Origin: Cyanidioschyzon merolae
Taxonomy: Eukaryota
DNA length: 64,000 nt
NCBI GenBank assembly: GCA_000091205.1
Contig: AP006500.2
Reading direction: 5' to 3' (one strand)
Shown: positions 24,401 through 41,998 of the stretch, one piece after another
How positions within the stretch are numbered: position 1 is the first letter of the stretch
Layout: every line of letters starts with the position of its first letter
Position numbers and translations under genes: made by a program
The notes under the pieces: model-generated
The model's input: only the letters and a program-made list of their open reading frames with translations
Told to the model about the DNA's origin: nothing
Database searches by the model: none

Positions 24401-25594
24401 GCTCGACAGCAGCACCGCCATGGCCTCGAAACGGACCGCCAGACGCAAGAGGCCCCACTCGAGCCGGAAACGACACCAGTGACGCAAGTTCGTTCGTTGC
24501 GAGCGTCGCTGACCCCGTGCAGCATTCACAGTGCTCGCTTTTGGGCACGCTTGGACTCGTTGCTCCGGCGCTGTACGCTCATGATGGATGCTTGCTCGCC
24601 AGTGAGGTGCAAAAGCGTCCTGCAGTGACGCCCACTGGAGCACATCCAAGCAAGGACTTGATCCCTCCGTATCAGGGCGTGTTCGTAGCGCATGAAAAGC
24701 GCTTCTGTAAGCACCGGCTTCGGATGCTGAGTCCAGTGGACTGGTGCGGCACCAGGCGCATGACCTTGAGGCCGCACTAATGTTCTCCTCGAGCGCAGCG
24801 GGAACCACACGATCCCCGGCATTCTCCGCAACGCTCTCTATTTCCATGGACGAATCCGGTGAGCTACGACTTTCCCAGCGCGTAAACTCAAGTCCACTAC
24901 CCGAGAGAGACTGCTCGTCGGTGCTGGTATCGGTGCACGAGGCCACTGCAACCGTCTCGGTGACTGGCTCGGCGGCAGCCTGCGTACGAGCACGCAGAGC
25001 CCGGAACAAGTCATCATAAACAGGATCGTGTCTGCAGAGTTCCAGGAGAGAATCCACGAGACGAGGTCCCAACCAGGCTGCGTCGGCACTCAAGGGTGCG
25101 TAAGCAGCCTCGCTCAGGAACGGCACCCGTGCTACCTGCCACCAAACTTCAAGAGCCTGGATCACAAGAACGAGACAGTCGGTTTCCAATATCTCTTGCA
25201 TAAGATCAAAAGGAAGCACCGACTGGCGGCATTCGGGTGCGAGTTGCGCAGCCAGCCAACCGAGCTTCGTGAGGTCTACCGCCAGTTCGCGGAATACACC
25301 GTTTCGTGCACCAGTCTGTCCAGCTTCGGCGACATCAGCGTCTCTAGTCGATAACGCCCTCATTGCGCGCAAGTTCCGTTCAATCGAAGCCCAAACTTGC
25401 TCAATCCAACCCTTCCACGGAGACGCTAGGCGAAGTAGCGGGTACGTGAGCCACGGACTCGGAGCCGCTGCTGTCACCTTCCAGGTTGTTCCCGTAGGGG
25501 CAGTGCCGGCCTGTGTACCCGTCCAAACACGCTCGAGCCAAGAGTCGAGCTGATCAGGATCAAACCCGAACCAATCATTCGTCTCGTACTCCAT
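18479..25594 (-). CDS. Large (2371 aa) uncharacterised protein, Leu/Ala-rich and probably helical-repeat, with a polyQ tract
   Basis: Uninterrupted 7.1-kb ORF with protein-like composition throughout, and with an N-terminus beginning MEYETNDWFGFDPDQLDSWLERVW. It carries a Q18-like tract (QQQQQQQQQQQQEQQQQQ, DNA about 19735-19790) and poly-T/A/S linker tracts. I recognise no catalytic motif. Confidence 0.6.
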   Translation of the reverse strand: MEYETNDWFGFDPDQLDSWLERVWTGTQAGTAPTGTTWKVTAAAPSPWLTYPLLRLASPWKGWIEQVWASIERNLRAMRALSTRDADVAEAGQTGARNGVFRELAVDLTKLGWLAAQLAPECRQSVLPFDLMQEILETDCLVLVIQALEVWWQVARVPFLSEAAYAPLSADAAWLGPRLVDSLLELCRHDPVYDDLFRALRARTQAAAEPVTETVAVASCTDTSTDEQSLSGSGLEFTRWESRSSPDSSMEIESVAENAGDRVVPAALEENISAASRSCAWCRTSPLDSASEAGAYRSAFHALRTRPDTEGSSPCLDVLQWASLQDAFAPHWRASIHHERTAPEQRVQACPKASTVNAARGQRRSQRTNLRHWCRFRLEWGLLRLAVRFEAMAVLLSSSGTARVSLEQLLMSEPHFWEDVIDTLRGAFFQTSQRPALANGARNAVSVELHPSVRALVERASLRLLAVAAATWKWEKPLLTSMLHGRGASWLFQAVCTALQTQQETPNDASSSHAERLELYLSTMSRLLRRERRLQHLDGRLQLQLVGLFQKLTGVLGAVAPASLLSLWALQFWTMVFRQTRSDDSFFGLLRHEMAYVQQMLLAQLQYLIGHVSERSAAHREHERYLERIRAYPWAHHDAAEALSETFGTLTLLESTWMRIAWHFLLLRYESQSNGNGTPAAASLIRNASPTLSGTMPAASTTGPTAWLPSERAQATGAHSGPATSGGNATAAAGTPAEPLTLHQPVIRHLLEQVLRHPRLFGGAVWSVATQTLALAMNDDPANAAVFWEEHTIDGLLAVLAAEQSTSMDLPATAEAYIAAWHALDALCIRREQLEALLQPVESTCTELAEVPTAPLGQLRPGPTPSSILGRMLSCLVRVMLYRPALSRARFHSGYDLSFIRGLWKRGPTVQTIFEQVVLSELQSWLRERDQHQALSASTTNDNVDESAAASAGASLEVLVVQRTEELLALDSAMMFCELLRKALLATSRQSAERRVAALTRERLEELQAALWLEALRSLFVPLGLYLLSSNEDRAVPSVRQLIQVTESVRRQALRAGMVIEAARVRAMLGQRLAQALPLVLNQVSPVHCTRIRASSIGSQRASSSSLSTHASRNAQRAPPLFEAILESDWPQTLSLASELGTLLMLLALWGQQLKHKFRLRGMSGGRAAAASAATDTAVGDGTLLQAVGCLERLARFALAQCAFEAVTVYPVALPAKRSLEIEVVMIEQASTAADRTSRLSNATRAVPSRPLQSPPWRSGGTAQAASSPATDTMQWSSERAEQNVTEVFGVARALAIFGVNVRPFYQCVLQESELDITLADVLVGHWAACETLFTGDVWELVQRPTTAHLEPAQCIYLVGLVSSLRALLQESSLPRRTARRLLTVLYARGWPVELFRLVRQLVPPVSLDTCRALDALLDLLVVALLAEDLALGDATPSSERREATAARLAPAGDAVGVETRSRRDSDAATRMTAAAFGMSGGSSAVAATTPPPTTTTTMAAAASPNDAWNAEQATRTSYLALVSVLVRRLLEHDWSQWPRLFVFRLLNLVRLLLAVDASPPAPAPSSLLASGGGAAPPVAGLEAGLRWRSSERAPMHRHPDLLLDSDEALERFVDTYGKGSSFPLRPARIDVLLPWSRRLLRLLQVGHRRQRMPQLDWISFQQQLRKWVREQALHRLFSAPPETLDTALVAECWSLLPPTTWLEDKSLLSSRQMDATGTSRTRPLDEHPLASLVVRAPAVAVHWIARLGFHDTSVSMLRVLAEILEASLDTCPPQDARMPAYLMLYALLLRVITAHSVHEPAAGATQPTGRIAERPSYVTTVPYIPRGVLTAHLPRFLARQALGTLWQYRWKRVRLPTVLEQMLGVIRPLWDWIEAHQVAGAASAEPSQRLALLDLELSALEAVVAAAHAQVRVAAPTPAAVLQAFLRMQRHIDALRAQQQQQQQQQQQQEQQQQQVAPLVARMLHAWLLLAEYVRIAFYEHDIGLVISAFDRVLREAFRESLSQSGQHQHTVTAASLNPVLERLQALHPMALSVSLMRCLRPVDATRDRRAEPRYQLNSDCPSIETVRVDGNLLTLLMSHEEPGLVWALASCMSTFGAPFATALTRVLRRPSAASYRDWLVRCLAAQAPNMQASVAAGAADPLSAVDWRYLSARALVVQLSAHAGEPQALALELWTEALQRWRDLQAFEGVSVRSEAVLTSTATHERPQSIARLASLTTRLVVHDAHRQMATTGGSNLLLELYGSSFQEPTQANTLLECLYQLAVFYGPGLLQYGPDRTGRYPLLKNGAALEAHRLRELLRSLPSVKSDLFDYAPLLGALGRARLPEPVLDPESMLEPNQELSWSGAALERKRSADTDDAEETISRSPSF

Positions 25595-26345: not shown

Positions 26346-27498
26346 GTACATTGCACTGCATTGCTTTCATTTGTCACATCGCTTTACACGATGATGTTAT
26401 GGACTGTAGTTCATTGCACTGCATTGCTTTGATGTGCGCGATGTACCGTCGAGCGTAGCACTGGCGTCGACGGCGCCTGCTACGAGTACGGCTCGAGGGC
26501 TGGTTTCGTTGCGCATTCGCCACGTGCTCGGGAAACGGTGCCGGGTCCACAGGTTAGGTCTGAGACGACTGGAAACCTGTCTAGGTTAGAGGGGCGTTCA
26601 TCAAGTACTACTACGTAGGCAACAGGAAGCCGTCGTTCCAGGCGTGAACGGTGTCGCGGGAATAGTCAGCGTGGTGCAGCGCGGGCAAGTTGCTGTACGC
26701 GAGTACGCGCGGCGTTTTTATCCCGGTTTGCAACGCGGCTGCTGCCAGCGTCTGTACCTACACTTTGCCAAAAAAAGCAATTTCCAGATTTTCGGTCACC
26801 TGGAAGGGTTTTATCTGAGCACTACGGACCACACGCCGTTCGGCTATGCTGGCTGCCACCGCATGGAACAGCACACTGCACGGAGAGGCTCCAGCGAGCA
26901 CTTGAGCCGTTCTCGGGGCGTGCGAGCAACAGCACGCAACGCTACGTCCATAAATGGAAACGAGGGTTTTTATGCAGCTACTTGGAACGTCGTCGTGGTG
27001 TGCAAGCGGGTGCCAGTGCCGTGTGCATCAGCTTTGAGCAACTTATGTTGGATTTCACAGCCGCGGCTTTGGATTCAAAGCCACAGCAGCAATCGCGGCT
27101 TTGGCGCGTCCGTTTGCACCCAACCAACGGGCGAGAATCGACATGTGCGCTCGAGTACGCATCCCATGGACTACTGGCTTCGTACTAGGACACATTGCCG
27201 CCAGACTCGGAGGCGTTCCCGCAATCGCGCTCGTTTTCGCGTAGGCGCTGAACCTTTAGCAACCCCAACTCCAAATCGTCAAACTACTCTGTACGGGAGA
27301 TGTGGATGGCAGTGGGCGCATGGGAGCTTCCAGCGCGTTCGAGCTACAAAATTCCAGACCCTGGGCGAGAGCACCTGCCGTTTGGTGCTGGCAACTGACG
27401 GCGATGGACGACCAAAACGATCGCCCTGCCATTGGCAACGAATGCGAATGCTCGGAGAGCCCGCTTCGAAAGGATGCACAGCCGCTGAAACTAGCAGA

Positions 27499-28965
27499 AT
27501 GGGAAGCTTGATGCGGCACTCGCTGACAAACTTGCGGCTCGATGTTCCCAGCCTTGTCGATACTGGTGTGCGCTGGGCATGCGCGCTGGTGATATCCGCC
27601 GGTGTCACCCTCTGTGGTGTCCATCCGGATAGCGTGGCTGTTGGTCGCGCGTCTGCAGCAGAAGGCGCTTCCGACTCCATTGCAGACTTTGCACGAACTG
27701 TTGGTGCTGCCCAGCCACGAACCAGCATCGATCGATTTGGGAACCCGCTGCTCCGTCGATACGTTTCAACGGATGGAGCGGCAGTTTTGCGGTGGTCGCT
27801 CCCGTTGCCAGAAGACTCCCCTTTTTGGGAGATTCAACGCCAGCTAGAACAGGTGGACGTCGAATTGAGCTTACGCGGAAGCTTCCGCCGCGGTCTGCGT
27901 GAGGCGCTGAAGAGTGCTCGCCAGGCGCTCGCTGCTCTGCAACGAGAGCGTCTCGATATTCTGCTCGATGTTGGCCGTGAACAAGTTGTCGTTGACACCC
28001 TCCGAAGAACGGAGCAGGAAATCACCCATCTTGTCGAGTCTCTGGAGCAACTAAACGCGTTGGGCCCGGGCTCAACGCAGCCGACGATACGCAGCGTGGC
28101 GGCAGCCGTGCGAGCGGAAGCATCCGCGTCCCGCTCGGGGGCCTTGGCGGAGCTCGCTCGCCTCGAGGAGGCCAGCATACGCCGTGTGCCTTTTCGCATT
28201 CCTCGTCGATACGATGACGAGGCGCGGCTGCGAGGCCGAGCGCTGGTACGACTCTACCTGGAAGCGCCGAAGACGACCGCCGGCGCTCGCCCAGCCCGCA
28301 GCGATACGGGGCAAACGCGCGGAACACCTGCACCTTGTGTGCTGCAGGTCGTGGTAGACGGCTGGAACGCCCCGCTCACATCCGGCAACTTTGTTCGGCG
28401 AGTGCTTGCCCATGAATACGACGGCATGCCGCTCATCGCGGAAGAGCAGGGCTCCTTCGTTTTCTTCAGCGAAGCCGCGAACGACGGCAAGCCTGCTGAC
28501 ACCGAGCATCTGCTTCCGCTGGAGATCCTGCTCGAGGGCGAGCCCGCTCCCCTGTACGGCGAGTCGATCGATACGGCTATGGTGGCAACCCAGCGGCAGC
28601 CGCCGGTGCTGCCAGTTGGCCCTTTCGGAACCCTGGCAATGGCACATTCCACCGAAGATGTCAACGATGCGCAGCGCGCTTTCTACATCTTTACTTTTGA
28701 TAAGCGATCGCTGGCTGCGAATAATCCCACCGGCAACGCCTTTACTGGCACCGTAGCAGTTTTCGGGTACCTTCCGGATGCATCTTCATTACAGTGCCTC
28801 GCAAATTTGCATCCAGGGTATCGGATTCGAACAGCTGAACTGGTGTACGGCAGGGAACGTTATTTTGGCAATGCTGCCGAGGAAGCGCGAGTGCTTGGCC
28901 CAGCGGGTAGCTTTCCAGATGAAATGCGTTTGGCGCTTCTGGAGCGTCGGCAACCTGAAACCTAA
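27499..28965 (+). CDS. CYP38/TLP40-like cyclophilin-type peptidyl-prolyl isomerase (thylakoid-lumen type: N-terminal helical region plus C-terminal divergent cyclophilin domain)
   Basis: The C-terminal domain is collinear with plant CYP38: 'VVVDGWNAPLTSGNFVRRVLAHEYDGMPLI' (cf. [29 protein letters not shown]), 'PLEILLEGEPAPLYG' (cf. PLEIMVTGEKTPFYG), 'GPFGTLAMAH' (cf. AFGTMAMAR), 'GTVAVFGYLPDAS...ELVYG'. The start is set at the in-frame Met MGSLMRHSLTNL..., which is followed by a hydrophobic presequence-like segment. The ORF runs open upstream to 26644, but that part is Arg/Cys/Trp-rich and not protein-like. Confidence 0.75.
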   Translation: MGSLMRHSLTNLRLDVPSLVDTGVRWACALVISAGVTLCGVHPDSVAVGRASAAEGASDSIADFARTVGAAQPRTSIDRFGNPLLRRYVSTDGAAVLRWSLPLPEDSPFWEIQRQLEQVDVELSLRGSFRRGLREALKSARQALAALQRERLDILLDVGREQVVVDTLRRTEQEITHLVESLEQLNALGPGSTQPTIRSVAAAVRAEASASRSGALAELARLEEASIRRVPFRIPRRYDDEARLRGRALVRLYLEAPKTTAGARPARSDTGQTRGTPAPCVLQVVVDGWNAPLTSGNFVRRVLAHEYDGMPLIAEEQGSFVFFSEAANDGKPADTEHLLPLEILLEGEPAPLYGESIDTAMVATQRQPPVLPVGPFGTLAMAHSTEDVNDAQRAFYIFTFDKRSLAANNPTGNAFTGTVAVFGYLPDASSLQCLANLHPGYRIRTAELVYGRERYFGNAAEEARVLGPAGSFPDEMRLALLERRQPET

Positions 28966-31952: not shown

Positions 31953-34900
31953 TTAACGTGTTTCCGGCTCGCTCAGCATTGGCAACCAAGCTACAAGCAG
32001 CGCCCATTCGTTCCAGGACGCATCTGCTGACGCTCGCTCTGCCATGGAACGCATATGCACATCGCTCATCGGCATACTGCGCTGCGAATCAGAGGCACGG
32101 CATGTACGCCGCTGCATCGCGCTTGCGCTGCCGATACTGGAATCGCCACGCGCTGAACCGATACCGCGCAGCGCCTGACACAGCGCCCCGTACTCCGGAA
32201 GCAACGCGCATCGCAACGGGGCCTGCAACCATCGCAAGCATACCGCATGGCCATACAGGACATGCTCCGGAACAAGCGACCAACCCGAACGAACGTATTG
32301 TCGGCAGCGCTTGACAAGCAGGCTCCGGTCCGGGACGCCAGCTGCTCCCGCTTCAACCATGCGAAAGAGTCGTTCCTCCAGAGACGCCCCCAGGGATGCG
32401 ACGCTGGAGCAACACCAACGCTCCAGTCGCTGCAAAGGCGTCTGTCTCTGTGCCCTTGGCATCCTAGACGCAGCTGCACCGACCCAATGCTGGAGAAGCA
32501 CCAGATCACCCACCCAGAGCGTATGTCGATGTCGATGTCGATGACGCTGGCATGCCGTCTGCAGCACGCTACCCCGACGCACGGCATCCAGCGCATCAAC
32601 CAGCAACAGCCACAGCTCCGTGCAATCCGCCTCCAGGCACAGGTCTAGTGCAGCGCGCCAAAAGGCGATCTCCTGATCATCACCAACGACGTTTCCTGCG
32701 GTCGATGCCTGCACGCATGGGACACGTGTCCCGAATGGAGGCCATGCGTGCGCCGACGATGCGTGCATCCCCATGCTCGCAGTTCGTGCGCTGGATACCC
32801 GCCATGCTTCCTCACCAGTACTTGTTGTGAAAGCGTCTTCCGTCGATGGGGAACGGTGTATGCCTTCTGTGGCGAGGTTAGGCGCGACGGTATCATCAGA
32901 CGCAGCGGGTATCGGGTTTGATGCGTTGCTCCAAGGCGAGCCCGGAAACGCAAGGCCGTAACGAAAAAGCGCGGAAAGCACTGGGTCAGTCGCAAACAAC
33001 TGCATCCAGTCGGCGCTGGGGGCCTTAGCAAGGTAGCGCAGCGGTAGCGAACGACATGTGAGGCCCTTCACCCCGTGAGGATCCCGCAGATACGATAAAT
33101 GGCCGGCGTGACGTCGCACGTACACTACGTAGGCCAAATAGGTATTTGCAAGGGGCTCTATTTCTCGCAGAGCTTCCGCGCTCAGCGAAACTGACCAGTA
33201 GCGCGGAGAGCGGATCACGAGCTCGTGCCAGCTATCCAAGGCCGGTAGCAAACACGGCGTCCAGTCTCGATAACGAACCGGGACGGCGTTCGATGTTCCG
33301 GTGCTGGTGCTGGAGACCATCATGACCTCCACCGGCACCGGGCAAGGTGTACGAGTGTCGGCGTCGAGCGTCACAAAGCAGCGCGCTTCTGCTGCCAGCA
33401 CGTACAAGTGACGGAGCGCCTGCAGGTGGTACTGGTTATCGCTAGGCGCGGCTGGATATCGAGGATACAGCGCTGCCAACAGGAGCGCCGTCTGCAGACG
33501 ATGACAACTACTGAGCGCCACTGTTCCACCGCCCAGGAACACAAGACCTAGCGCCAAATGCCGAGCTAGGTGGTTTCCATAGGTTTCACCGCTTGTCGTC
33601 CGAGACAAGGTCGACGGCCGCGTCGCGCCTGCCATTCCACTGGACGTCAACCCAGCGACAATTCCAGTGGCACCTCGTCGACAGAGCAGCCGTCGCAAGC
33701 GCCGATATACAGAGTGCGTTCCGTGACCCGCGCACACCACGGCCATAGCAATGCTCAGGTTATCAATGCAAGCGAGAAGCCACGGCGCTGCGGAACTGTT
33801 GGCACTAGCTGTGTAGCGGAGGTCCACCAGGTCGAGCAGCTTTTCCAGGATGCGTCTCGCTTGCGGATGAGCGGTACCTGCCAGTTTCAGGGCCATCGCC
33901 AATGCCTGTCCCGTCAAGGCCAGAAGCATGTAGAGCCGCACGACAGCAGGGCGCTGAGGCGCTCCGCTGCCCAGCAAATCCGCCGAGCTGCGCGCTGCAG
34001 ACTCGATCTGCTCGGTTTCCGCTGGCACCACAGGATCGTTGGCAACGGCCACATACCACCGGCTGATCCGGCTTGTACCGGCTCCTGTGGCGAGGCCCTG
34101 TGAACGAAGCGTCGAATTCTCCTCCCGAGGCTGATCGCCACGGTGCGCAGCTTCTCGATTTCTGTCCGCTTGCCACTGGGCAGCCAATGGTGCCGGCAAC
34201 TCAGAGAGCATCCAGTCCCAACTGGGACTCATCGCGTCCCAGCGAATGAGTGCTGCTGCAAGCGAGCGCAGCAGCACCAGTTCCGGGCGTAGCAGCCACA
34301 AGGCTCGCTGCCCACTGCGCGGCGGACCCAGTTTTCGGGCCATGGCCTCATCGTTGCTGCGCAGGTACCAGACTGTCAGGGCCATCAGGGCACCCACAGC
34401 AGCAGCAGAAGCATCACTGGGGATACGCTCGGGATCGAGCAGCGCCTGCGGGCCGCTATCCACGGCGGGCATGCTACTCGTTGTGATTCCCGCGCGGAAT
34501 AATGATGATGTGGAAAATGATGATGATATTGATAATGATGGTGATGATGCTCTACCTTGTTCTGTTTCTCCTTCTGCTCCGATGCGCACCGATGACCACG
34601 AGTCGTCCGCTTCAAGACCACTACGGCTTTCTAGACGAGCGCCACGCCCTAGTGTCCCGGTTACCGAATCGTATCCAGCTCGAGTTGGCAACCTCGTGGT
34701 TGCATACGATGCACCATCATCATCACCATTATTATAGTCGTCGTCGTCTTCATTCCCGAGCGCTGTTGGCGCTCCACCTGGAACATTCGCTTGCAACCGC
34801 GTCGTCGTCGCACCCAATGCTCCATCCGTTAGACCACTCGCAAGAACACCAGGAACATCATGTGGAACAGGCGCATTAGCAGTAGCAGCATGCGTACCGG

Positions 34901-37900
34901 GAGCAGCGTTCGTTTCCCCATGAACAGTACCAGCAGTACCACTACGCCTTTCACGACGGGCGACAGGACGACGCTCCTCACGAGCGGGCAATTTAGCCGA
35001 GCTCAAACGCATTGGTGCATCGTCTGCATCACCGGCACCGGTACGCGTCACTAGTGCCACCAGACTGCCAACATAGCGTCGAGCGGCTGTCGCGGGACCT
35101 GTCACCATGTCGCTGACGTTCGCTCCTGTTGCAGCGCTGCGCTGTTCGCTTGCAGCCTCTGGCAAGCCCACCAGTCCGAGTGCCAGTCCAGCGGCCAGCG
35201 CATGCGCCTCACGGTCGCGACGGACACTCCAGGGCCAACCGCTGGTATTGTTGGTGTTGCTGGTGCCGGCTGCCGAGCCTGCGAAACCGCCACTCGCTGC
35301 CATCACTCCGGCACCAAGAGAACCGGTAGCAGGTGCAGCTGCACCTGTCGAAGCCGCAGCAGCAATGGAGGATGCCATCGCCACACCGGCTCCGTCGCAG
35401 AGTTCCACAAACAAACCCTCGAGGATAGCTTTGCGTCCACTGCAGGCAAACACAAGACCCATTGCCAACACTGCAGCGCTCTGAACCGCTGGTGATACAT
35501 CCCAGTCGGGTTGTGCAAATCCGGTAGGATTGAAGGCGCGAATATGCAGACCCGCCAGACGCGCAACCAACGCGTGCGCCGTGCCGCCGTACGAAGCCCC
35601 GAGTCCCAACAACAACGCGATGCTCGTCAGCTCATGTCGAGGTAACAGGTACGCATACCAGTCGGTAACCTGAAGCTGCCGCAAATGCCCGTGCAGACCC
35701 AGAGCCAAAACGAGTCCAGCGTGCGACGCAGTTGGTCGACTCGGCTTCTGTTGACGGATCCAGGCGCGAGTCACAGGGACCTGGGCGGTAAACGCCAGCT
35801 CCTGCTGCGCTGGCACACCACTCCGGGTCGCTGACGAGCCCCCAGATGCCTCGGGCGCGCCAGGGACTAGTCGACCGCGGATCCAGGTCGGAAAGCGAGT
35901 GCTGCTCGGCCGCAACCGCAGACCTGCTGCTACAGCGTTGTGGAACGCGCCCCATTCAAAGTAAGCAGCTGGTAGTACGCTAGCATCCAACTGGATGGGC
36001 GTCGATCGCTGCGGCAGTCGTCCGGAGAGCACCAACGGTGGCACCAGCAGCGTCTTGGTAGAGTCATCCACTGTTCCTGTCCAGGCGGTGAAAGCGCCTC
36101 GACCTATCGGGGCGGCGAGCGTGCGCTGTGCACTGGCAAAGAGCTGTGCTTGCACCTCGGATGGGGACAATAATGGCGACGACGACGACGACCCCAGTGT
36201 TGTTGTTTCGGTTGTTGCTGCAGTCGCTGCTGGATCAGGGTCGGTGAGCAACACGGGCACTGCCGAACGCAGCAGACGCTGGACTTGCCAGAGTCGTCGA
36301 TCAGCGCGAAACCGCAACCAGGGTATGATGCTGGTTAGTTCACAGCCATCGAGGTGATTCGGATGGACGACACCACGACCTCCCTGTTGTCGTCGTCGTC
36401 GTCGTCGACAACGGCGATCGTGATGATGATGGTGATAATCGTAGCGCTGCGGGATGGCATGCGTCGCAGCACTAGTTCCGGCAGCAGACGGGAACGAGCG
36501 TTCACGAGAGGGCCCAGGATCCGCCCTGAACAGCGCTACTGAATTGCCGTCGTCATCGACATCTTCATCATCGATGCCATCGTCATCGTCATCGATGTCG
36601 ATGTCGTCATCGTCGAGGAACAGCGCCCCTTCGACATCATCATCGTCATCATCGTCATCAGTGCCGTGGTGGTGGCGACGGTGGTGGTGTTCCGGATGCT
36701 TCGCTATAGCCAGCGCGGATGCAGAGCTCGACGGCATCCAGGCACGAAGAGGAGCAGCACCATTCGAGCTGCTTTTGGTGAAGGAGGAGGCAGCAACGCG
36801 CCCGGGTCCAGCGCTGGATGCATACAGGTCGCTCGTCACCTGAGCAGCAAAGCGCTCAACGGAAGGATTCAGCCACAGTCGAGAGGTGATGTTTGTTCCG
36901 AGCGCTTCACGGGACGCTGCCCCGCTCGCACGAGTCGCGCTGAACCAGGTAGCTCCCTGGACACTGCCGGAGCCCGCTCCAGTAGGCGAAAGGCCGCTCT
37001 GGAGGCGCAGCATCGCCATCTCTGGTTCGGGGAGCGCTGGGAGCCATCCCGCTACAGCTGCAGCACTAGAAACCACGCCAGCTGCCGCCAGCTCTGAATC
37101 AGCATCCGAATTGCCGGCACCAGGATGCACTTGTGGAGCGGGCTCGGAGCGCAGCCCCGCTAAAGCGTGTTGCAGCGGCAGTGCGATGCCCACTGGTAAG
37201 CGAGCGAGCGTACGCGCGTCAAGACGTATTCCCTCCTGGTGAAGGCTAACCAGTCCAGCGTCACAGGGATGCTGTAGCGGTACGGAAACCTCTGGTATAG
37301 CAGACTGCTCTGCTACAATCGTCTCGGTCGTGGAGTCCAGAGCAGCGGTTCCCACTGGACCAACACCAGCGTGCGCCGGCGACAGCTCAGTTGACGCTCC
37401 TGTGGATTCACCGGATGACGTCGATTGTTGACAGTGCTCTAGACGCTCGAAAAAAGTGACAAGTTGCGCAAGTCGAGCGACTGGATTCGGGAACTCATCT
37501 GGATGCCGGTCGTTCACGAACTCGCGCACCAGCGGTGCATCCAGTGGATGTCGCTCTGCAGAAAGACCAGAGGGAGCAGTGGAAAGCGTAGAAGCAAACG
37601 CGGCGGGAAACTGCGCCAGCATGTCCTTCGCGGGCCTGCAGCACGCTCTATCTGTTTTGTATATGCCCAGTAGTAATGGCAAACGATCCTGCAACCAGTC
37701 AAAGATGTTCAACGGTGCTTCCGAATCATCGGTGAGATATAAAGACGACTCCACGCGCTGCTGATTGCTCTGCTGATCGCTAATGCTGGCTACTTCCGCA
37801 TCCACCGGGAGGTGCAAAGACGTTTCCGCACCTTGTCCATTGTGCTGGTGATCGCATATCCGAGCTTCTTCCGGATCAGCGGTGCTGCTCCTTTCACTAG

Positions 37901-40900
37901 CCTTGTCCAGAGAGCGTGAATGTCGAAGCAAACTGGATGCTTCCAAGGACTCATCGCTTGAAGCAGGGTGCAATGTTCCCGAAGAAACACTCGAACGCTC
38001 ACATGATTCCGGCATATCGCGTTGATAGTACTCCCAGTAACGTAGAGCGTTTGCCGCTAGTGCCACTTTTTTCAGGAAATGATTCACGGACAGCAACGCT
38101 TGCCAATAGATTTGGTCGAGCTTGAATGCTTCGTAGAGGGTATGAAACGCCACCAGCAGCGATTTCCATGGAACTGTTTCAGGGAGCTGCGCACCAGCGT
38201 ACTGTAGCTCACAGCGTAGGCGTAGCAGACACTCGCCCGAAGCAGTACCGCTAGGTTCTGGTCCCGTTTCCCAGCAGAATGGGCAGCCTTTGACGCGCTC
38301 TGCACGTCTTGTCGTAACGACAGATGAGCCTTGCATTGGTGTTCCGCGGTAGCATCGCGAACAAGGTTGTTCCCTTGTCCTTGCATCGCAGGCAGCACGT
38401 CCAGTCGAAGGTGCCTCGGCGGCGGCGGCAGCAGCAGCAGCAGCAGCAGCAGTTGTAGTTGTAGCGGTCTCTGGCGTGCACTTGGCTGCATCGCTTCTAG
38501 TTGCTGTTGATGCTTTTGCTGTTCGTTGTTCTGTACTAACGCGCTCGTCACCGCGGTGACTTGCCGCCGACGAGCACGACCGCTCGCTGCCTCGCGTCCA
38601 GGGCGCCGACTGTGTCGCCAGTCGGAGTGGCGACAATGAAAGTTGACCTTGTGAATCGTGGATCGCTTCAGAGGCGCTCCCCGTGGCTATATGTTCGCGT
38701 TCAGGGACCAGTGACGAGTGCATCTCGTCGAAAGCGCTTGCCGAAATGTCCCAAAGCCAGCCGGGAAGTACGCCAGGCGCTGGTCGCGCGCTTGCCTTTA
38801 AAATACTTGTCTTTGGCGAGGACAAGTCCGGCACGCTTCGCCAGTGACTTGCGTCGGTGGGTGCAGCGCCACCGCTTGCCCGCTGTCCAGCATTACGACA
38901 ACTGCTGCTGCTGCTGCTGCTGCTGCTGCAAAACGTTCCCCGTTCTGGATAGCGCTGATGCATCCACTGGTGTCGATGAGGTTGCTGCAGAGCCCGCCAA
39001 AACGCATCCAATTGTTTTTCAAGTTCGTTTGAAGCGGTGCCTTGCGTCTCGGCAGCTTGGGGCCTCCAGACCTCCTCGATGAACGCCAGATAGATTTGCA
39101 TACTGACTGCCGCAGGCAGCGTTCTTCGACAAGCGCCCCAGAGCTGGTGCATAATCGGAAGCGGCTCACGGAGTAGACGACTCAAACAGACCCGATACTG
39201 TTGGCCATCTGCGAGCGTTAACGTGAAACGACACTTCACTGCATTGGCGAGCCAGACTGGTGCAGCTGTCTTACCGAGCAGCCGCAGATACCCGACGGGT
39301 TCAGCACCGAACTGGAGACGCAGTCGCGGCTTGGGCGTTCCCCCAAGGAGGACGAGCAGATCCAACATGCCGGGTCGCAAAGCCTCGACCGCCGCCATTG
39401 CCTGCACGCCACGTTGAACAAAGACAAGCTCCGCGCTCTTCATCAACCGCGGCTGTGCTGGCGTTGAAAAGAGCTCCAAGCCACGCAGCGTCTCACCAAT
39501 GAGCAGACACAGCAACGGTGAAATGTGCACGCCTCTTCCTCCGGCACCTGACCAGGGATGTGCGAAGCAGGCCGCTCGAAACGTATCGTTGGGGTCCACC
39601 AGACCCTGTTCCCAGACCAAAGCCAGTTGGACCGGCCCGCTATCGAACGTTGTATCGTTCTGCGTATCTCCGGTTGTTCGATCCTGCAGAAGATACACCC
39701 GAATGGTGTGGTGCTCGGTCGGCGACGACCTCGACGTTCCGTGACAGCGTTGCGTTACCAGCACTGGATAGCGAGCGTCCGTGAAAACAATGCGTTCCTG
39801 GATCTCGAGTTCTTCCAGTTCGTACGGCTCATTCAACGGATGCCACAGCACCAGTTTGCGTCCATCGGCGAGGGCAACTACCAGACCTCGCGGTAGCGCA
39901 TGAAGCGCCAGTATGACGGCACGAGCGGTCGGCATTGCTTCCATCATCATGGTCGTCATTGGAGGATACAAGCGACTGGAACTTGAGCCAGTCAACCTTT
40001 GGGTGCTCTCTCGCTGGACCCCGGTGAGCAGCGTTGACGTCTGCTCTGAAACTGCGGACTTGTGCAAGCCGCTCGGCAGACTCGCAACGCCACGTCGTGG
40101 ACCGCCTTGACTGAAGCTGTTCGAACCACCCTTCGCGACAAATGAGACACTATGCATCCTTCCGTCCTGCCAGTTGAATACTTGAAGTAGGCGACCAGCA
40201 TCCTGAACCGAGCACCAGCCGACAAAGGAGCGTGCGCCCTCCGCATCGGCTGCTGGTTGCCAAAGTGACCGCCCCGATCCAGGAGGTAGCTCCTCCGCCG
40301 AGGCGTCGCAAAAGTTCGCAAAAGCAGCCCACGCATGCATAGGTCCGAGCCGATCCCCGGCACTTGTCGGTACGTCGGAGCAGCACACTGCACATGCTGG
40401 GAAGCTTTGGGCTCCTCGCCGTACCGCGAACGCCTCGGCGTCCGTTTCGAACCAGGTATATCGAACGAGATCCGCAGATCGCCACTGTAAAGCCCAGGTC
40501 AAGTCCTTGGAAGCGTCGCCACCTCGGCTACGCTGTTTTGGATGCCAAACAAGCGCCTCTTCCGGTGCGCAGAGGAGGTTCTCCGAGTGGCCGCCTCGCG
40601 AGCTGCAGGAAAAGAACCAGACGCGGTCTGCGATGCCGTGCTGGTCCACCAAACGATAGAGGTAGTCACGATCGCTCCCCTGAGACAGTTCCAGGCAACC
40701 AGAGGCAGTGACGGACACAGGAATAGTCACATTCGCCATAAAGGCCGGCAGTGCAAGTCCAGCGCAGCGGTCCACCACGAAGAGCAGTTCTGTAGCAGAC
40801 TGGCGCCGCGCGTTACCGCCGCCAGTGGTGGTGCACGAGTCGCAACGACTCCAACGCGCGGGAAAACGGCTCGGAAGCGCTCGGTCATCAGCACAAAGCT

Positions 40901-40928
40901 TGTGTTGTGTGCCTGCGGGACTGGTCAC
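31953..40928 (-). CDS. Anaphase-promoting complex subunit 1 (APC1) homolog, expanded to 2991 aa
   Basis: A block of PC (proteasome/cyclosome) repeats typical of APC1/Rpn1/Rpn2: 'AGLVLALGLHGH', 'IALLLGLGASYGGTAH', 'AAVLAMGLVFACSGRKA', 'LAAGLALGLVGL', 'ARHLALGLVFLGGGTVALS'. The N-terminal region is beta-propeller-like. It carries large low-complexity insertions (D/H/A/S/T homopolymers, e.g. HHHRRHHHGTDDDDDDDDVEG...DDDDIDIDDDDDGIDDEDVDDDG). Confidence 0.65.
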   Translation of the reverse strand: MTSPAGTQHKLCADDRALPSRFPARWSRCDSCTTTGGGNARRQSATELLFVVDRCAGLALPAFMANVTIPVSVTASGCLELSQGSDRDYLYRLVDQHGIADRVWFFSCSSRGGHSENLLCAPEEALVWHPKQRSRGGDASKDLTWALQWRSADLVRYTWFETDAEAFAVRRGAQSFPACAVCCSDVPTSAGDRLGPMHAWAAFANFCDASAEELPPGSGRSLWQPAADAEGARSFVGWCSVQDAGRLLQVFNWQDGRMHSVSFVAKGGSNSFSQGGPRRGVASLPSGLHKSAVSEQTSTLLTGVQRESTQRLTGSSSSRLYPPMTTMMMEAMPTARAVILALHALPRGLVVALADGRKLVLWHPLNEPYELEELEIQERIVFTDARYPVLVTQRCHGTSRSSPTEHHTIRVYLLQDRTTGDTQNDTTFDSGPVQLALVWEQGLVDPNDTFRAACFAHPWSGAGGRGVHISPLLCLLIGETLRGLELFSTPAQPRLMKSAELVFVQRGVQAMAAVEALRPGMLDLLVLLGGTPKPRLRLQFGAEPVGYLRLLGKTAAPVWLANAVKCRFTLTLADGQQYRVCLSRLLREPLPIMHQLWGACRRTLPAAVSMQIYLAFIEEVWRPQAAETQGTASNELEKQLDAFWRALQQPHRHQWMHQRYPERGTFCSSSSSSSSSCRNAGQRASGGAAPTDASHWRSVPDLSSPKTSILKASARPAPGVLPGWLWDISASAFDEMHSSLVPEREHIATGSASEAIHDSQGQLSLSPLRLATQSAPWTRGSERSCSSAASHRGDERVSTEQRTAKASTATRSDAAKCTPETATTTTAAAAAAAAAAAEAPSTGRAACDARTREQPCSRCYRGTPMQGSSVVTTRRAERVKGCPFCWETGPEPSGTASGECLLRLRCELQYAGAQLPETVPWKSLLVAFHTLYEAFKLDQIYWQALLSVNHFLKKVALAANALRYWEYYQRDMPESCERSSVSSGTLHPASSDESLEASSLLRHSRSLDKASERSSTADPEEARICDHQHNGQGAETSLHLPVDAEVASISDQQSNQQRVESSLYLTDDSEAPLNIFDWLQDRLPLLLGIYKTDRACCRPAKDMLAQFPAAFASTLSTAPSGLSAERHPLDAPLVREFVNDRHPDEFPNPVARLAQLVTFFERLEHCQQSTSSGESTGASTELSPAHAGVGPVGTAALDSTTETIVAEQSAIPEVSVPLQHPCDAGLVSLHQEGIRLDARTLARLPVGIALPLQHALAGLRSEPAPQVHPGAGNSDADSELAAAGVVSSAAAVAGWLPALPEPEMAMLRLQSGLSPTGAGSGSVQGATWFSATRASGAASREALGTNITSRLWLNPSVERFAAQVTSDLYASSAGPGRVAASSFTKSSSNGAAPLRAWMPSSSASALAIAKHPEHHHRRHHHGTDDDDDDDDVEGALFLDDDDIDIDDDDDGIDDEDVDDDGNSVALFRADPGPSRERSFPSAAGTSAATHAIPQRYDYHHHHHDRRCRRRRRRQQGGRGVVHPNHLDGCELTSIIPWLRFRADRRLWQVQRLLRSAVPVLLTDPDPAATAATTETTTLGSSSSSPLLSPSEVQAQLFASAQRTLAAPIGRGAFTAWTGTVDDSTKTLLVPPLVLSGRLPQRSTPIQLDASVLPAAYFEWGAFHNAVAAGLRLRPSSTRFPTWIRGRLVPGAPEASGGSSATRSGVPAQQELAFTAQVPVTRAWIRQQKPSRPTASHAGLVLALGLHGHLRQLQVTDWYAYLLPRHELTSIALLLGLGASYGGTAHALVARLAGLHIRAFNPTGFAQPDWDVSPAVQSAAVLAMGLVFACSGRKAILEGLFVELCDGAGVAMASSIAAAASTGAAAPATGSLGAGVMAASGGFAGSAAGTSNTNNTSGWPWSVRRDREAHALAAGLALGLVGLPEAASEQRSAATGANVSDMVTGPATAARRYVGSLVALVTRTGAGDADDAPMRLSSAKLPAREERRPVARRERRSGTAGTVHGETNAAPGTHAATANAPVPHDVPGVLASGLTDGALGATTTRLQANVPGGAPTALGNEDDDDYNNGDDDGASYATTRLPTRAGYDSVTGTLGRGARLESRSGLEADDSWSSVRIGAEGETEQGRASSPSLSISSSFSTSSLFRAGITTSSMPAVDSGPQALLDPERIPSDASAAAVGALMALTVWYLRSNDEAMARKLGPPRSGQRALWLLRPELVLLRSLAAALIRWDAMSPSWDWMLSELPAPLAAQWQADRNREAAHRGDQPREENSTLRSQGLATGAGTSRISRWYVAVANDPVVPAETEQIESAARSSADLLGSGAPQRPAVVRLYMLLALTGQALAMALKLAGTAHPQARRILEKLLDLVDLRYTASANSSAAPWLLACIDNLSIAMAVVCAGHGTHSVYRRLRRLLCRRGATGIVAGLTSSGMAGATRPSTLSRTTSGETYGNHLARHLALGLVFLGGGTVALSSCHRLQTALLLAALYPRYPAAPSDNQYHLQALRHLYVLAAEARCFVTLDADTRTPCPVPVEVMMVSSTSTGTSNAVPVRYRDWTPCLLPALDSWHELVIRSPRYWSVSLSAEALREIEPLANTYLAYVVYVRRHAGHLSYLRDPHGVKGLTCRSLPLRYLAKAPSADWMQLFATDPVLSALFRYGLAFPGSPWSNASNPIPAASDDTVAPNLATEGIHRSPSTEDAFTTSTGEEAWRVSSARTASMGMHASSAHAWPPFGTRVPCVQASTAGNVVGDDQEIAFWRAALDLCLEADCTELWLLLVDALDAVRRGSVLQTACQRHRHRHRHTLWVGDLVLLQHWVGAAASRMPRAQRQTPLQRLERWCCSSVASLGASLEERLFRMVEAGAAGVPDRSLLVKRCRQYVRSGWSLVPEHVLYGHAVCLRWLQAPLRCALLPEYGALCQALRGIGSARGDSSIGSASAMQRRTCRASDSQRSMPMSDVHMRSMAERASADASWNEWALLVAWLPMLSEPETR

Positions 40929-41542
40929 CGATGAGCATGGTGCAGAGAACGAGGCTCCGGGAGCGCCTCCTGAGTGTTCTGTGGATGCAGCGGACGAGCG
41001 CGGCTTGGAACGATCCAGCAGGAGCGCACAGGTCCTCAGGGACGCTCGTTGCGTCCAGTTTTCTACGAAGCGAGTTTAGGCGAAATGCTGGGACAAGCGC
41101 CACGACTTGCAGTGCGGGCAGTACAGTGCACACACAGAGGCACCGCTCTACGGACGGAGACAACCTACGCGTGAACTCCAGGAAACCGGTAGAGGTCACT
41201 GGGGAAGCGCTGCGGCTTGGGGCAGGCACACGCGCTTTCCCGGGAGCGGTTCACGCTTCTCTGCAGCAGGATCGTACTTTTTCTGCAGGCACGCAAGCGT
41301 CTTCCGCTGGTGGCTCGCAGACGCCTCGTGCAGTTGCCGGTGCAGCAGCGCCAACTGCTGCGAGCGACTCCGATGGTGGAGCTGCTGCTTCGGAGACAGC
41401 GCAAGGTACCACACGTGCCAAGTTTGAGCAACAACCGCTTCCGTCGTCAGCGCACAGTGTATCGGGACGAACACTCAGCGGCCTAGCGTATTTGAAAGCC
41501 CTTTGGGCTGAATATCCCAAGCGAGGCTTTTGGGGTACCCTG

Positions 41543-41998
41543 ATGGCGATCCGTACCGGACGGGTGGGCATGTATGACACCTGCCTCGTTGGCATCGATG
41601 AGTTCGGAAACCGCTACTATGAAAATCGTGCAGCCAGCTACATGCGTGATCGCTGGTGTGAGTACAGGGACGGCAAAAACGCAGACCCAGTCTGTATACC
41701 GCCTGAGTGGCACGCGTGGCTCCACCATTTTGTGGATGATCCACCGGTGTCTGCAAACGACAAGTGGGTGCGTCCGTTGTTTGTGAAACCTCCGCATCCG
41801 AACTATTCCGGAACATCGCAGGCGTATGCGCCTCGGAATAGTCCCCGGAGCCCCGCGTACATTGGACATCTGGCGACTTCCGTGGTTGAGTCCTGGCAGG
41901 CGCAGACTACGCTACAGAGGCAGCGCAAGCCGCGGGCCTTAACTCCTGCCCGTGAAAAGACATCCCCAGAACCGGATCAGCGATTGGACTTGCCTTGA
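41543..41998 (+). CDS. NADH dehydrogenase [ubiquinone] 1 alpha subcomplex subunit 12 family (NDUFA12/B17.2, or its paralog NDUFAF2)
   Basis: 'CLVGIDEFGNRYYEN', 'RWCEY', and 'IPPEWHAWLHHFVDDPP' (cf. VPPEWHRWLHCMTDDPP). About 151 aa from MAIRTGR... (in frame, verified). The ORF extends upstream to 40907, overlapping the APC1 5' end, but that extension is low-complexity Ala/Ser/Arg and probably non-coding. Confidence 0.7.
   Translation: MAIRTGRVGMYDTCLVGIDEFGNRYYENRAASYMRDRWCEYRDGKNADPVCIPPEWHAWLHHFVDDPPVSANDKWVRPLFVKPPHPNYSGTSQAYAPRNSPRSPAYIGHLATSVVESWQAQTTLQRQRKPRALTPAREKTSPEPDQRLDLP

What the first reader, a model, noticed from the sequence alone, without database searches (positions are those of the whole stretch)
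31953..40928. APC1 homolog inflated to ~3000 aa by homopolymer insertions
The PC-repeat block (LALGL/LGLGA/LALGLV motifs, DNA about 35000-36800 on the minus strand) identifies this as APC1, which is about 1900-2000 aa in animals and plants. Here roughly 1000 extra residues come from runs of D, H, A, S, T, R and E, including a bizarre segment HHHRRHHHGTDDDDDDDD...DDDDIDIDDDDDGIDDEDVDDDG...HHHHHDRRCRRRRRRQQ. Either the cyclosome scaffold tolerates, or uses, very large disordered loops in this organism, or part of the ORF is an unspliced intron that happens to stay in frame.
Basis: partly seen in the sequence, partly recalled or inferred. Interest (0 to 1): 0.55.

Follow-up and report, generated by a model that had tools for sequence, protein, structure and literature searches.

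The report
Red-alga APC1 with expanded disordered loops
This is the already-annotated, intron-free APC1 (cyclosome scaffold) gene of the red alga Cyanidioschyzon merolae; it is about 1000 residues longer than animal APC1 because ten surface loops and linkers have grown into fast-evolving, probably disordered segments, and true single-amino-acid runs are only a small part of that extra length.

Summary
The ORF is real: window 31953-40928 (-), 2991 codons. From its first ATG (40739) it is residue-for-residue C. merolae 10D XP_005538387.1, 2928 aa, annotated 'similar to meiotic check point regulator'. That name appears, from my own recollection, to be an old one for mouse APC1.

APC1 identity is firm. 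phmmer against human APC1 gives E 5e-70. A profile-profile alignment is colinear from the WD40 region to mid-C (probability 100%). An AlphaFold model of the PC/mid-C part hits only APC1 chains first.

Runs of 4 or more identical residues total 69 aa. The ~980-aa excess sits in ten expanded loops and linkers, 1216 aa against 258 in a vertebrate APC1. Their sequence is non-repetitive but compositionally biased.

The unspliced-intron idea is rejected:
- There are no in-frame stops in the inserts, against 20-45 in every other frame.
- The ORF contains no GUAAGU.
- All strain indels are multiples of 3.

The same ten loops are already expanded in two sister Cyanidiales (2546 and 2496 aa). Other red-algal-like homologs are 1589-1913 aa. 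The five inserts within the confidently modelled PC domain have pLDDT below 50. The inserts are poorly conserved (10% invariant against 44%) yet still under purifying selection (pN/pS 0.38).

Verdict: ordinary, known gene, low interest.

The parts
31953..40739 (-). APC1 coding sequence, single exon, 2928 aa plus stop (C. merolae 10D XP_005538387.1 / BAM82351.1)
   Evidence: The translation from the ATG equals P0034 exactly. phmmer against human APC1 gives E 5e-70.
40740..40928 (-). In-frame upstream stretch (63 codons from a GTG), probably 5' UTR or divergent promoter rather than coding
   Evidence: The NCBI model and the ortholog P0002 both start at the ATG. Only prokaryote-style metagenome gene calls use the GTG, giving 2989-2994 aa. 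The stretch overlaps the start of the divergent NDUFA12-like ORF.
39912..40739 (-). N-terminal 276 aa, conserved among the three Cyanidiales but not confidently aligned to canonical APC1
39066..39911 (-). Region homologous to the APC1 WD40 domain (aa 277-558, matching frog 178-649). The 300s loop is 39 aa against 148, and the 500s loop is 5 aa against 73.
   Evidence: hhalign blocks with confidence 4 or higher. The fold was not confirmed because the AlphaFold model was poor.
38163..39065 (-). Insert 1 (aa 559-859; 301 aa against 113 in frog) in mid-N. It holds the (AGC)8 poly-Ser run, the poly-Thr/poly-Ala run and the conserved island SQGQLSLSPLRLAT.
37722..38000 (-). Insert 2 (aa 914-1006; 93 against 24) in mid-N
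37467..37682 (-). Insert 3 (aa 1020-1091; 72 against 20) in mid-N
36351..37073 (-). Insert 4 (aa 1223-1463; 241 against 29), the mid-N to PC linker. It holds the conserved island LPALPEPEMAMLRLQ and the H/D/R segment.
36384..36698 (-). The 'bizarre' His/Asp/Arg-rich segment (P0034 aa 1348-1452). It sits just before the conserved DGCEL..PWLRFR motif, where vertebrates have a short acidic patch (EEEDDGM).
   Evidence: It is largely absent from P0002: the window aa 1401-1450 is 100% gap there.
33387..36350 (-). PC (proteasome/cyclosome repeat) toroid domain including five inserts (aa 1464 to about 2451, matching human 1013-1616)
   Evidence: AlphaFold plus Foldseek returns APC1 chains as the top 17 hits (E 3.7e-28), then Rpn1/Rpn2.
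35781..35906 (-). Insert 5 (aa 1612-1653; 42 against 1)
   Evidence: pLDDT below 50.
35217..35384 (-). Insert 6 (aa 1786-1841; 56 against 7), Ala/Gly-rich, with a 12-nt strain indel
   Evidence: pLDDT below 50.
34437..35048 (-). Insert 7 (aa 1898-2101; 204 against 24), at the human loop that carries phosphosites 1347/1349
   Evidence: pLDDT below 50 and no secondary structure over model residues 438-642. Phosphosites are from PMC5717348 Table 1.
33921..34175 (-). Insert 8 (aa 2189-2273; 85 against 26), with the conserved island RWYVAVANDP
   Evidence: Partly low pLDDT.
33591..33674 (-). Insert 9 (aa 2356-2383; 28 against 2)
   Evidence: pLDDT below 50.
33177..33383 (-). APC1 beta-sandwich domain (Pfam APC1_3rd)
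   Evidence: 28.2 bits against a gathering score of 27, E 2.7e-6. Strands are predicted here.
32670..32951 (-). Insert 10 (aa 2597-2690; 94 against 12) in mid-C
31956..33386 (-). Mid-C / C-terminal helical region (aa 2452-2928)
   Evidence: hhalign blocks extend to Cm 2846, matching frog 1904.

Best explanation
The ORF is the single-exon gene for APC1, the largest scaffold subunit of the anaphase-promoting complex/cyclosome, in Cyanidioschyzon merolae 10D. All canonical APC1 regions are present in the usual order: WD40-homologous region, mid-N, PC toroid, beta-sandwich and mid-C.

The ~980 extra residues relative to vertebrate APC1 come almost entirely from ten expanded loops and linkers between conserved blocks. 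They total 1216 aa here against 258 aa in frog.

These segments are enriched in Ser, Gly, Thr and Asp and poor in Leu and aromatics. For the five inside the PC domain, AlphaFold predicts no structure.

They began expanding in the common ancestor of Cyanidioschyzon, Cyanidiococcus and a third Cyanidiales lineage, and kept growing in C. merolae. Part of that growth came from slippage of short trinucleotide repeats, which produced the visible homopolymer runs.

Inferred, not shown: they project from the surface of the complex as disordered loops, so the scaffold fold and its subunit contacts are unaffected. They are translated and kept in frame, and they are under weak-to-moderate purifying selection. 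That is compatible either with tolerated spacers under generic constraints or with short embedded motifs doing something.
For: Identity.
- The CDS matches XP_005538387.1 exactly, and three neighbouring genes match strain 10D exactly.
- Human APC1 scores E 5e-70 in colinear blocks.
- APC1_3rd scores above the Pfam threshold.
- hhalign gives probability 100%, E 7e-164 and E 7e-148, colinear from Cm 277-2846 to frog 178-1904.
- Foldseek returns APC1 chains as the top 17 hits, E 3.7e-28.

Insert map.
- Ten linkers account for +958 of the +980 aa.
- The same ten loops total about 850 and 801 aa in P0002 and Cyanidiococcus, which explains their 2546 and 2496 aa.

Disorder.
- AlphaFold segments with pLDDT below 50 and no secondary structure coincide with inserts 5, 6, 7 and 9 and part of insert 8.
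- Inserts are depleted in Leu (6.7% against 13.3%) and enriched in S, G, T and D.

Coding, not intron.
- There are no stops in frame across 1087 insert codons, against 20-45 in each of the other five frames.
- The ORF has no GTAAGT.
- Six haplotypes all keep the ORF, with lengths of 8970-8985 nt.

Slippage.
- The runs are (AGC)8, (GCT)7(GCC)4, (CGA)6 and (TCG)5.
- All five strain indel sites lie in such runs inside inserts.

Constraint.
- Inserts are 10% invariant against 44% elsewhere, and 42% against 5% of positions are gapped in at least one species.
- pN/pS is 0.38 in inserts (binomial p = 0.003 against neutral) and 0.26 in the core.
Against: - Disorder is predicted only for the PC-domain inserts.
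- The model of the N-terminal 1200 aa was uninformative (mean pLDDT 38.6). Inserts 1-3 are therefore called disordered from composition only.
- Inserts 4 and 10 lie outside both models, so they too rest on composition only.
- pN/pS below 1 and three conserved islands show the inserts are not pure junk.
- No transcript or peptide evidence could be examined with these tools.
- Pfam PC_rep itself gave no hit at E up to 1.
Confidence: 0.85

Rival explanations
1. Part of the ORF is an unspliced intron (or several) that happens to stay in frame, so the mature protein is nearer 2000 aa.
For: The inserts are compositionally odd and poorly conserved. One branch-site-like heptamer, ACTAACC, lies at window 36333-36339, just downstream of the H/D/R segment.
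Against: - There are 0 in-frame stops in 1087 insert codons, against 20-45 in each other frame.
- GTAAGT does not occur anywhere in the ORF, and there is no GTNAGT within 1.2 kb upstream of the ACTAACC.
- That heptamer encodes the conserved E-L-T of the DGCEL motif, and one such 7-mer is about what chance gives in 9 kb.
- An RNA-seq census finds only 39 introns in C. merolae. They have near-invariant GUAAGU and ACUAACC signals, and 85% carry in-frame stops (bioRxiv 10.64898/2026.05.17.725761).
- All indels among six haplotypes are multiples of 3.
- Nonsynonymous polymorphism in the inserts is depleted (pN/pS 0.38).
- Orthologs in two sister species keep the same inserts in frame.
Confidence: 0.02
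2. The expanded loops are functional. They carry short linear motifs that regulate or assemble the red-algal APC/C. They might stand in for the metazoan 300s-loop auto-inhibitory segment, which is nearly absent here, or for subunits not detected in red algae (Apc4, Apc5, Apc12, Apc13).
For: - Three islands are conserved across three Cyanidiales inside otherwise variable inserts: SQGQLSLSPLRLAT, LPALPEPEMAMLRLQ and RWYVAVANDP. The first holds the protein's only S/T-P-x-K/R site in C. merolae and P0002, but the basic residue is not conserved (SPLH in Cyanidiococcus).
- pN/pS in the inserts is 0.38.
- The 300s and 500s loops are reduced to 39 and 5 aa.
- Eme et al. 2011 found no Apc4, Apc5, Apc12 or Apc13 in red algae (PMC3195147).
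- In yeast and human, small disordered subunits glue the large ones together (PMC11473103).
Against: - S/T-P sites are not enriched in the inserts: 8 in 1216 aa against 14 in 1712 aa.
- About 90% of insert positions vary and 42% are gapped among the three species.
- Insert lengths differ up to 3-fold between sister lineages.
- The missing subunits rest on 2011-era sequence searches and may simply be divergent.
- pN/pS below 1 is also expected from generic constraints on disordered linkers.
Confidence: 0.12
3. The long ORF is an assembly or annotation artefact, or two or more adjacent genes read through.
For: An earlier Cyanidiococcus annotation splits its ortholog into at least three separate 'APC1' models of 862, 572 and 384 aa.
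Against: - Five independent metagenome contigs carry the same ORF at 99% identity.
- A newer Cyanidiococcus annotation gives one 2496-aa protein.
- P0002 is one 2546-aa ORF in the same NDUFA12-APC1-CYP38 synteny.
- The conserved APC1 blocks on both sides of every insert are colinear and in one frame.
Confidence: 0.01

Closest known systems
Human/vertebrate APC1 (ANAPC1, Tsg24; PDB 5g04, 9gaw chain A; 1944 aa)
   Same: The order of regions is the same: WD40-homologous region, mid-N, PC toroid, beta-sandwich and mid-C. The longest conserved C-terminal blocks are about 40-50% identical (by eye from the alignment); overall hhalign identity is 24%. The model's best structural matches are these chains. 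Several insert sites coincide with human loops that carry mapped phosphosites (686-731, 1001, 1347/1349; PMC5717348).
   Different: It is +980 aa, through ten expanded loops. The 300s loop, which holds the metazoan auto-inhibitory segment, is 39 aa instead of 148. The 500s loop is 5 aa instead of 73. The short acidic patch before the PC domain is blown up into the H/D/R segment.
APC1 of sister Cyanidiales: Cyanidiococcus yangmingshanensis KAK4529635.1 (2496 aa) and metagenomic P0002 (2546 aa)
   Same: All ten loops are expanded at the same positions. Identity is 44-45% overall and up to 88% within the PC domain. The NDUFA12-APC1-CYP38 synteny is shared (seen for P0002).
   Different: C. merolae is 380-430 aa longer, mostly in inserts 4, 6 and 7. 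The D/H/R runs are largely C. merolae-specific (aa 1401-1450 is 100% gap in P0002).
Other long APC1 homologs (P0182 3652 aa, unnamed; P0172 2495; P0205 2497; P0087 2370; Pseudozyma hubeiensis 2345)
   Same: These are colinear APC1 proteins well above 2000 aa. APC1 inflation is therefore recurrent and C. merolae is not the extreme.
   Different: They are independent lineages. Their insert positions were not compared in detail.
Proteasome Rpn1/Rpn2 (PC-repeat toroids)
   Same: They share the PC-repeat toroid fold and are the second tier of structural hits, E 1e-7 to 1e-3.
   Different: They have no APC1 beta-sandwich, mid-N, mid-C or WD40-homologous region. APC1 chains score about 20 orders of magnitude better.

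Membership tests
APC1 (anaphase-promoting complex subunit 1) | Significant, colinear sequence similarity to experimentally solved APC1 | tested here: met
   Human APC1 E 5e-70 and yeast Apc1 E 1e-28, with blocks in order over query 925-2657. hhalign gives probability 100% with 1493-1691 aligned columns.
APC1 (anaphase-promoting complex subunit 1) | APC1-specific beta-sandwich domain (Pfam APC1_3rd; also APC1_4th) | tested here: met
   PF21282 scores 28.2 bits against a gathering score of 27. PF27562 and PF21282 are precomputed on the 99%-identical P0001.
APC1 (anaphase-promoting complex subunit 1) | PC (proteasome/cyclosome) repeats detected by the Pfam PC_rep HMM | tested here: not met
   PF01851 gives no hit at E up to 1. 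Several bona fide vertebrate APC1s also lack a precomputed PF01851 hit, so this HMM is insensitive.
APC1 (anaphase-promoting complex subunit 1) | PC-repeat toroid fold | tested here: met
   The AlphaFold model of aa 1464-2600 has pTM 0.67, with the helical repeats at pLDDT 80-97. Foldseek returns APC1 chains first, then Rpn1/Rpn2.
APC1 (anaphase-promoting complex subunit 1) | N-terminal WD40 propeller | tested here: inconclusive
   Profile alignment of Cm 277-558 to frog 178-649 is confident. The AlphaFold model of aa 1-1200 was too poor to show a propeller (pLDDT 38.6), and aa 1-276 are not confidently aligned.
APC1 (anaphase-promoting complex subunit 1) | Assembles with Apc2/4/5/8 etc. as the platform scaffold of an active E3 ligase | not testable with these tools
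   This needs IP-MS or a structure. The literature reports no detectable Apc4 or Apc5 in red algae (PMC3195147).
Metazoan-type APC1 regulation | Long phosphorylated 300s loop with an auto-inhibitory segment | tested here: not met
   The loop is 39 aa against 148 in frog. No equivalent segment was identified.
Intron-containing genes of C. merolae | GUAAGU 5' splice site, ACUAACC branch site and AG; usually an in-frame stop | tested here: not met
   There is no GTAAGT in the ORF. The single ACTAACC lies in a conserved coding motif. There are 0 in-frame stops. The consensus is from bioRxiv 10.64898/2026.05.17.725761.

The most novel reading that the evidence does not exclude
In the Cyanidioschyzon/Cyanidiococcus lineage, APC1's expanded loops are not passive. 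Conserved islands inside them would act in cis as the regulatory or 'molecular glue' elements that other eukaryotes supply through the 300s loop and through small disordered subunits or Apc4/Apc5. The islands are LSLSPLRL (a full CDK-consensus site in C. merolae and P0002 only) and LPALPEPEMAMLRLQ. The 300s loop is nearly absent here, and those subunits have not been detected in red algae.
Probability: 0.1. Interest if true: 0.55.

Novelty: already known. Interest (0 to 1): 0.2.

Why it matters
The practical value is mostly housekeeping. The work confirms that the C. merolae gene labelled 'similar to meiotic check point regulator' is a full-length APC1. It gives a residue-level map of where the extra 1000 aa sit. 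It shows that they are translated loop expansions, not introns.

This is mildly interesting because C. merolae is used as a 'minimal' eukaryote with a compact genome, yet it keeps about 1200 weakly conserved residues in one essential scaffold. It also lacks the long 300s loop that gates Cdc20 binding in animals. If the conserved islands proved functional, this genetically tractable alga would be a simple system for asking how APC/C is regulated without the metazoan loop.

Tried and rejected
- The first word-indexed homolog search with the whole protein was swamped by low-complexity words and gave 6 hits.
- A search with the conserved C-terminal piece returned mostly unnamed fragments.
- The third search, with the canonical APC1 alignment, returned essentially only vertebrates. 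No named Galdieria or Porphyra APC1 was obtained.
- The exhaustive representative search gave lengths but no names.
- Pfam found only APC1_3rd. PC_rep, Apc1_MidN, ANAPC1 and APC1_C did not fire on this protein.
- AlphaFold of aa 1-1200 with a 12-sequence alignment was uninformative (pLDDT 38.6), so it was not sent to fold search.
- S/T-P enrichment in the inserts, as a hint of CDK regulation, was tested and not found.
- The ACTAACC next to the H/D/R segment was examined as a possible branch site and dismissed.
- Literature searches for the accession numbers and for 'meiotic check point regulator' found nothing.
- The Gracilariopsis cell-cycle paper has no APC1 data.
- P0106 (3508 aa) was rejected as a long APC1 because it is a chimeric Dicer-like/APC1 gene model.

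Full report
**1. What is in the sequence**

The minus strand of window 31953-40928 is one stop-free ORF of 2991 codons starting at a GTG. The first ATG is codon 64. From there the translation is 2928 aa.

That translation is identical, residue for residue, to NCBI XP_005538387.1 / BAM82351.1. The record is annotated 'similar to meiotic check point regulator' of Cyanidioschyzon merolae 10D and sits on a 1,253,087-bp chromosome record.

Three other proteins of the window also match strain 10D exactly: the Pet8p-like carrier, the CpeS-like protein, and PTPA as a cluster member. The window also shows:
- mostly uninterrupted ORFs on alternating strands;
- about 57% G+C;
- a nuclear phycobilin-lyase gene.

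The window is therefore a piece of the C. merolae nuclear genome. The annotation name appears, from my own recollection (not checked here), to be an old name for mouse APC1 (Tsg24). If so, the gene was already filed as an APC1 relative.

**2. Is it APC1?**

Yes.
- phmmer against all PDB chains gives human APC1 at E 5e-70 and yeast Apc1 at E 1e-28. Matched blocks are in the same order in both proteins, over query 925-2657.
- Pfam gives APC1_3rd, the APC1 beta-sandwich, just above its gathering score (28.2 against 27). It gives nothing else, and PC_rep does not fire.
- I compared a profile of three Cyanidiales orthologs with a profile of 21 canonical APC1s. Probability is 100% (E 7e-164 locally, E 7e-148 with relaxed extension). 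The alignment is colinear from Cm 277 / frog 178 to Cm 2846 / frog 1904.
- An AlphaFold2 model of aa 1464-2600 has pTM 0.67, with helical repeats and the beta-sandwich at pLDDT 80-97. Its best 17 Foldseek matches in the PDB are all APC1 chains (E 3.7e-28 downward). The PC-repeat proteasome subunits Rpn1/Rpn2 come next.

Human domain limits are WD40 1-612, mid-N 613-986, PC 1013-1616 and mid-C 1617-1944 (PMC5717348). By these limits every region has a counterpart here. The N-terminal propeller fold could not be confirmed, because the model of aa 1-1200 was poor (pLDDT 38.6).

**3. Where the extra length is**

High-confidence hhalign columns serve as anchors. Ten linkers between conserved blocks hold 1216 aa in C. 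merolae against 258 aa in the frog protein. That is +958 of the +980 difference.

| Insert | P0034 aa | Length (frog) | Window coordinates |
|---|---|---|---|
| 1 | 559-859 | 301 (113) | 38163-39065 |
| 2 | 914-1006 | 93 (24) | 37722-38000 |
| 3 | 1020-1091 | 72 (20) | 37467-37682 |
| 4 | 1223-1463 | 241 (29) | 36351-37073 |
| 5 | 1612-1653 | 42 (1) | 35781-35906 |
| 6 | 1786-1841 | 56 (7) | 35217-35384 |
| 7 | 1898-2101 | 204 (24) | 34437-35048 |
| 8 | 2189-2273 | 85 (26) | 33921-34175 |
| 9 | 2356-2383 | 28 (2) | 33591-33674 |
| 10 | 2597-2690 | 94 (12) | 32670-32951 |

Several of these positions are loops that carry mapped phosphosites in human APC1: 686-731, 1001 and 1347/1349 (PMC5717348). 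That is consistent with exposed, flexible sites; this link is inference.

Conversely, two long vertebrate WD40 loops are short here. The 300s loop is 39 aa against 148, and the 500s loop is 5 aa against 73.

It lies inside insert 4, the linker between mid-N and the PC domain. It sits directly before the conserved DGCEL..PWLRFR motif. Vertebrates have a short acidic patch (EEEDDGM) at that spot, and P0002 has a D-rich stretch.

**4. Homopolymers are a minor part**

- Runs of 4 or more identical residues: 12 runs, 69 aa (2.4%).
- Runs of 3 or more: 132 aa.
- Low-entropy 20-aa windows: about 422 aa, including some genuine PC repeats.
- Tandem Repeats Finder sees only short arrays, about 320 nt in all. 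Every period is a multiple of 3 except one trivial array of 1.9 copies.

Most runs are pure trinucleotide repeats: (AGC)8, (GCT)7(GCC)4, (CGA)6, (TCG)5 and (GAC)4. This points to replication slippage. The Asp and His runs mix two codons.

The bulk of the inserts is non-repetitive sequence with a composition bias. S, G, T, D and H are raised. Leu is halved (6.7% against 13.3%), and M, Y, K and F are lowered.

Neighbouring large ORFs have similar run densities. The HECT ligase has 1.9%. The DUF913 protein has 1.4%, including Q12. Runs are thus shared by the other two large proteins in this window, not a peculiarity of APC1.

**5. Not an intron, not two genes**

- The 1087 codons in inserts of 15 aa or more contain no in-frame stop. 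The other five frames over the same DNA contain 20-45 each.
- The ORF has no GTAAGT. It has one ACTAACC, with no GTNAGT within 1.2 kb upstream. That heptamer encodes the conserved E-L-T of the DGCEL motif and is about what chance gives.
- An RNA-seq census reports only 39 introns in C. merolae. They have near-invariant GUAAGU and ACUAACC signals, and 85% carry in-frame stops (bioRxiv 10.64898/2026.05.17.725761).
- Five environmental contigs from JGI metagenomes carry the same gene at about 99% identity. All keep the ORF. Lengths are 8970-8985 nt and differ by multiples of 3.
- The five indel sites all lie in repeat runs inside inserts: poly-Ser, Q after poly-Arg, a GAAA repeat and the D runs.

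**6. Evolution**

Two sister Cyanidiales proteins expand the same ten loops, to about 850 and 801 aa in total. They are metagenomic P0002 (2546 aa) and Cyanidiococcus yangmingshanensis KAK4529635.1 (2496 aa). The expansion accounts for their length, and P0002 shares the NDUFA12-APC1-CYP38 gene order.

The red alga Rhodosorus marinus has a 1589-aa APC1. The next-closest hits in an exhaustive search are 1698-1913 aa. The inflation therefore arose within the Cyanidioschyzon/Cyanidiococcus branch and continued in C. merolae.

| Measure | Inserts | Elsewhere |
|---|---|---|
| Positions invariant among the three species | 10% | 44% |
| Positions gapped in at least one species | 42% | 5% |
| Segregating sites per kb (six haplotypes) | 10.4 | 5.1 |
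| pN/pS | 0.38 (p = 0.003 against neutral) | 0.26 |

The two pN/pS values do not differ significantly (Fisher p = 0.45). The inserts thus evolve fast but are not free of constraint.

Three short islands inside inserts are conserved in all three species:
- SQGQLSLSPLRLAT, which holds the protein's only S/T-P-x-K/R site in C. merolae and P0002; in Cyanidiococcus the basic residue is His;
- LPALPEPEMAMLRLQ;
- RWYVAVANDP.

**7. Structure prediction of the inserts**

In the model of aa 1464-2600, the segments with pLDDT below 50 and no secondary structure are model residues 150-189, 324-375, 438-642, 771-783 and 904-919. These correspond to inserts 5, 6 and 7, part of insert 8, and insert 9. The first 123 residues of the model are also low, probably because their mid-N partner is missing from the construct. 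This supports the 'very large disordered loops' reading for the PC domain. For inserts 1-4 and 10 the only evidence is composition.

**8. How unusual is it?**

Among 1339 library representatives with E at or below 1e-10, the best 150 are mostly 1500-2100 aa. Colinear APC1s of 2370, 2495, 2497 and 3652 aa also exist. A 3508-aa hit is a chimeric Dicer-like gene model. APC1 inflation is therefore recurrent, and C. merolae is not the extreme.

Published APC/C surveys already count Apc1 as present in red algae. They report no detectable Apc4, Apc5, Apc12 or Apc13 there (PMC3195147). I found no paper that discusses the size of the C. merolae protein.

**9. Verdict**

This is a known, annotated, single-exon APC1 whose extra length comes from ten lineage-specific loop expansions that are probably disordered. 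Slippage-generated homopolymer runs are only a small visible part of them.

The intron alternative is rejected. A functional role for the conserved islands cannot be excluded, for example replacing the missing long 300s loop or the undetected small subunits. Nothing beyond their conservation and a pN/pS below 1 supports it.

Noticed in passing
window 11704-16965 (+) and 18479-25594 (-): Two convergent large ORFs look like the two halves of a HUWE1/TOM1/UPL-type ligase. The 1729-aa one has UBM repeats and a HECT domain that best matches HUWE1/TOM1 (E 1e-130). The 2371-aa one on the opposite strand has a DUF913 hit, which by my recollection normally lies in the N-terminal part of the same protein, and no PDB sequence match. 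It could be a split gene, an inversion or two paralogs.
   Followed up: partly
window 40740-41998; L001, L002: A 355-aa protein with an NDUFA12 domain only at its C-terminus (aa 227-330 of the ORF) is transcribed divergently from APC1. Only about 190 bp separate the two ATGs. The order NDUFA12-APC1-CYP38-like is conserved in the sister lineage P0002.
   Followed up: partly
Cyanidiococcus yangmingshanensis records KAF6004631.1, KAF6004633.1, KAF6004634.1 against KAK4529635.1: An earlier annotation of the sister species splits its APC1 into at least three separate 'APC1' gene models (572, 862 and 384 aa). A later one gives a single 2496-aa protein. The split probably arose at the low-complexity inserts.
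   Followed up: no
window 36333-36339 (-): An exact match to the Cyanidiales branch-site consensus ACTAACC lies just downstream of the H/D/R segment. It is inside conserved coding sequence (E-L-T of DGCELT). No 5' splice site lies upstream, so it is judged a chance match.
   Followed up: yes
window 31953-40739, six haplotypes (window, L001, L003-L006): Synonymous diversity is also higher in the inserts: 18 sites per 933 synonymous sites, against 15 per 1331 in the core. This hints at a higher local mutation rate or weaker codon constraint in the repeat-rich DNA.
   Followed up: no
L001 12255-12584 (+), corresponding to the window just below 31953 on the minus strand: Metagenome gene callers place a 109-aa ORF 10 nt after the APC1 stop codon in all environmental contigs. 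It has no Pfam hit, and I did not check whether it is a real gene.
   Followed up: no
P0106 (KAF9181463.1, Haplosporangium sp.): A 3508-aa protein named 'Dicer-like protein 1' contains a complete APC1 in residues 21-1934. It is evidently a fused gene model in that fungal assembly.
   Followed up: partly
window 26644-28965 (+), 58829-60046 (+): The CYP38-like cyclophilin (about 700 aa) and the CpeS-like lyase (405 aa, domain at 145-315) extend well beyond their Pfam domain hits. From memory, they also look much longer than their usual homologs. Long extensions may be common in this genome and not specific to APC1.
   Followed up: no
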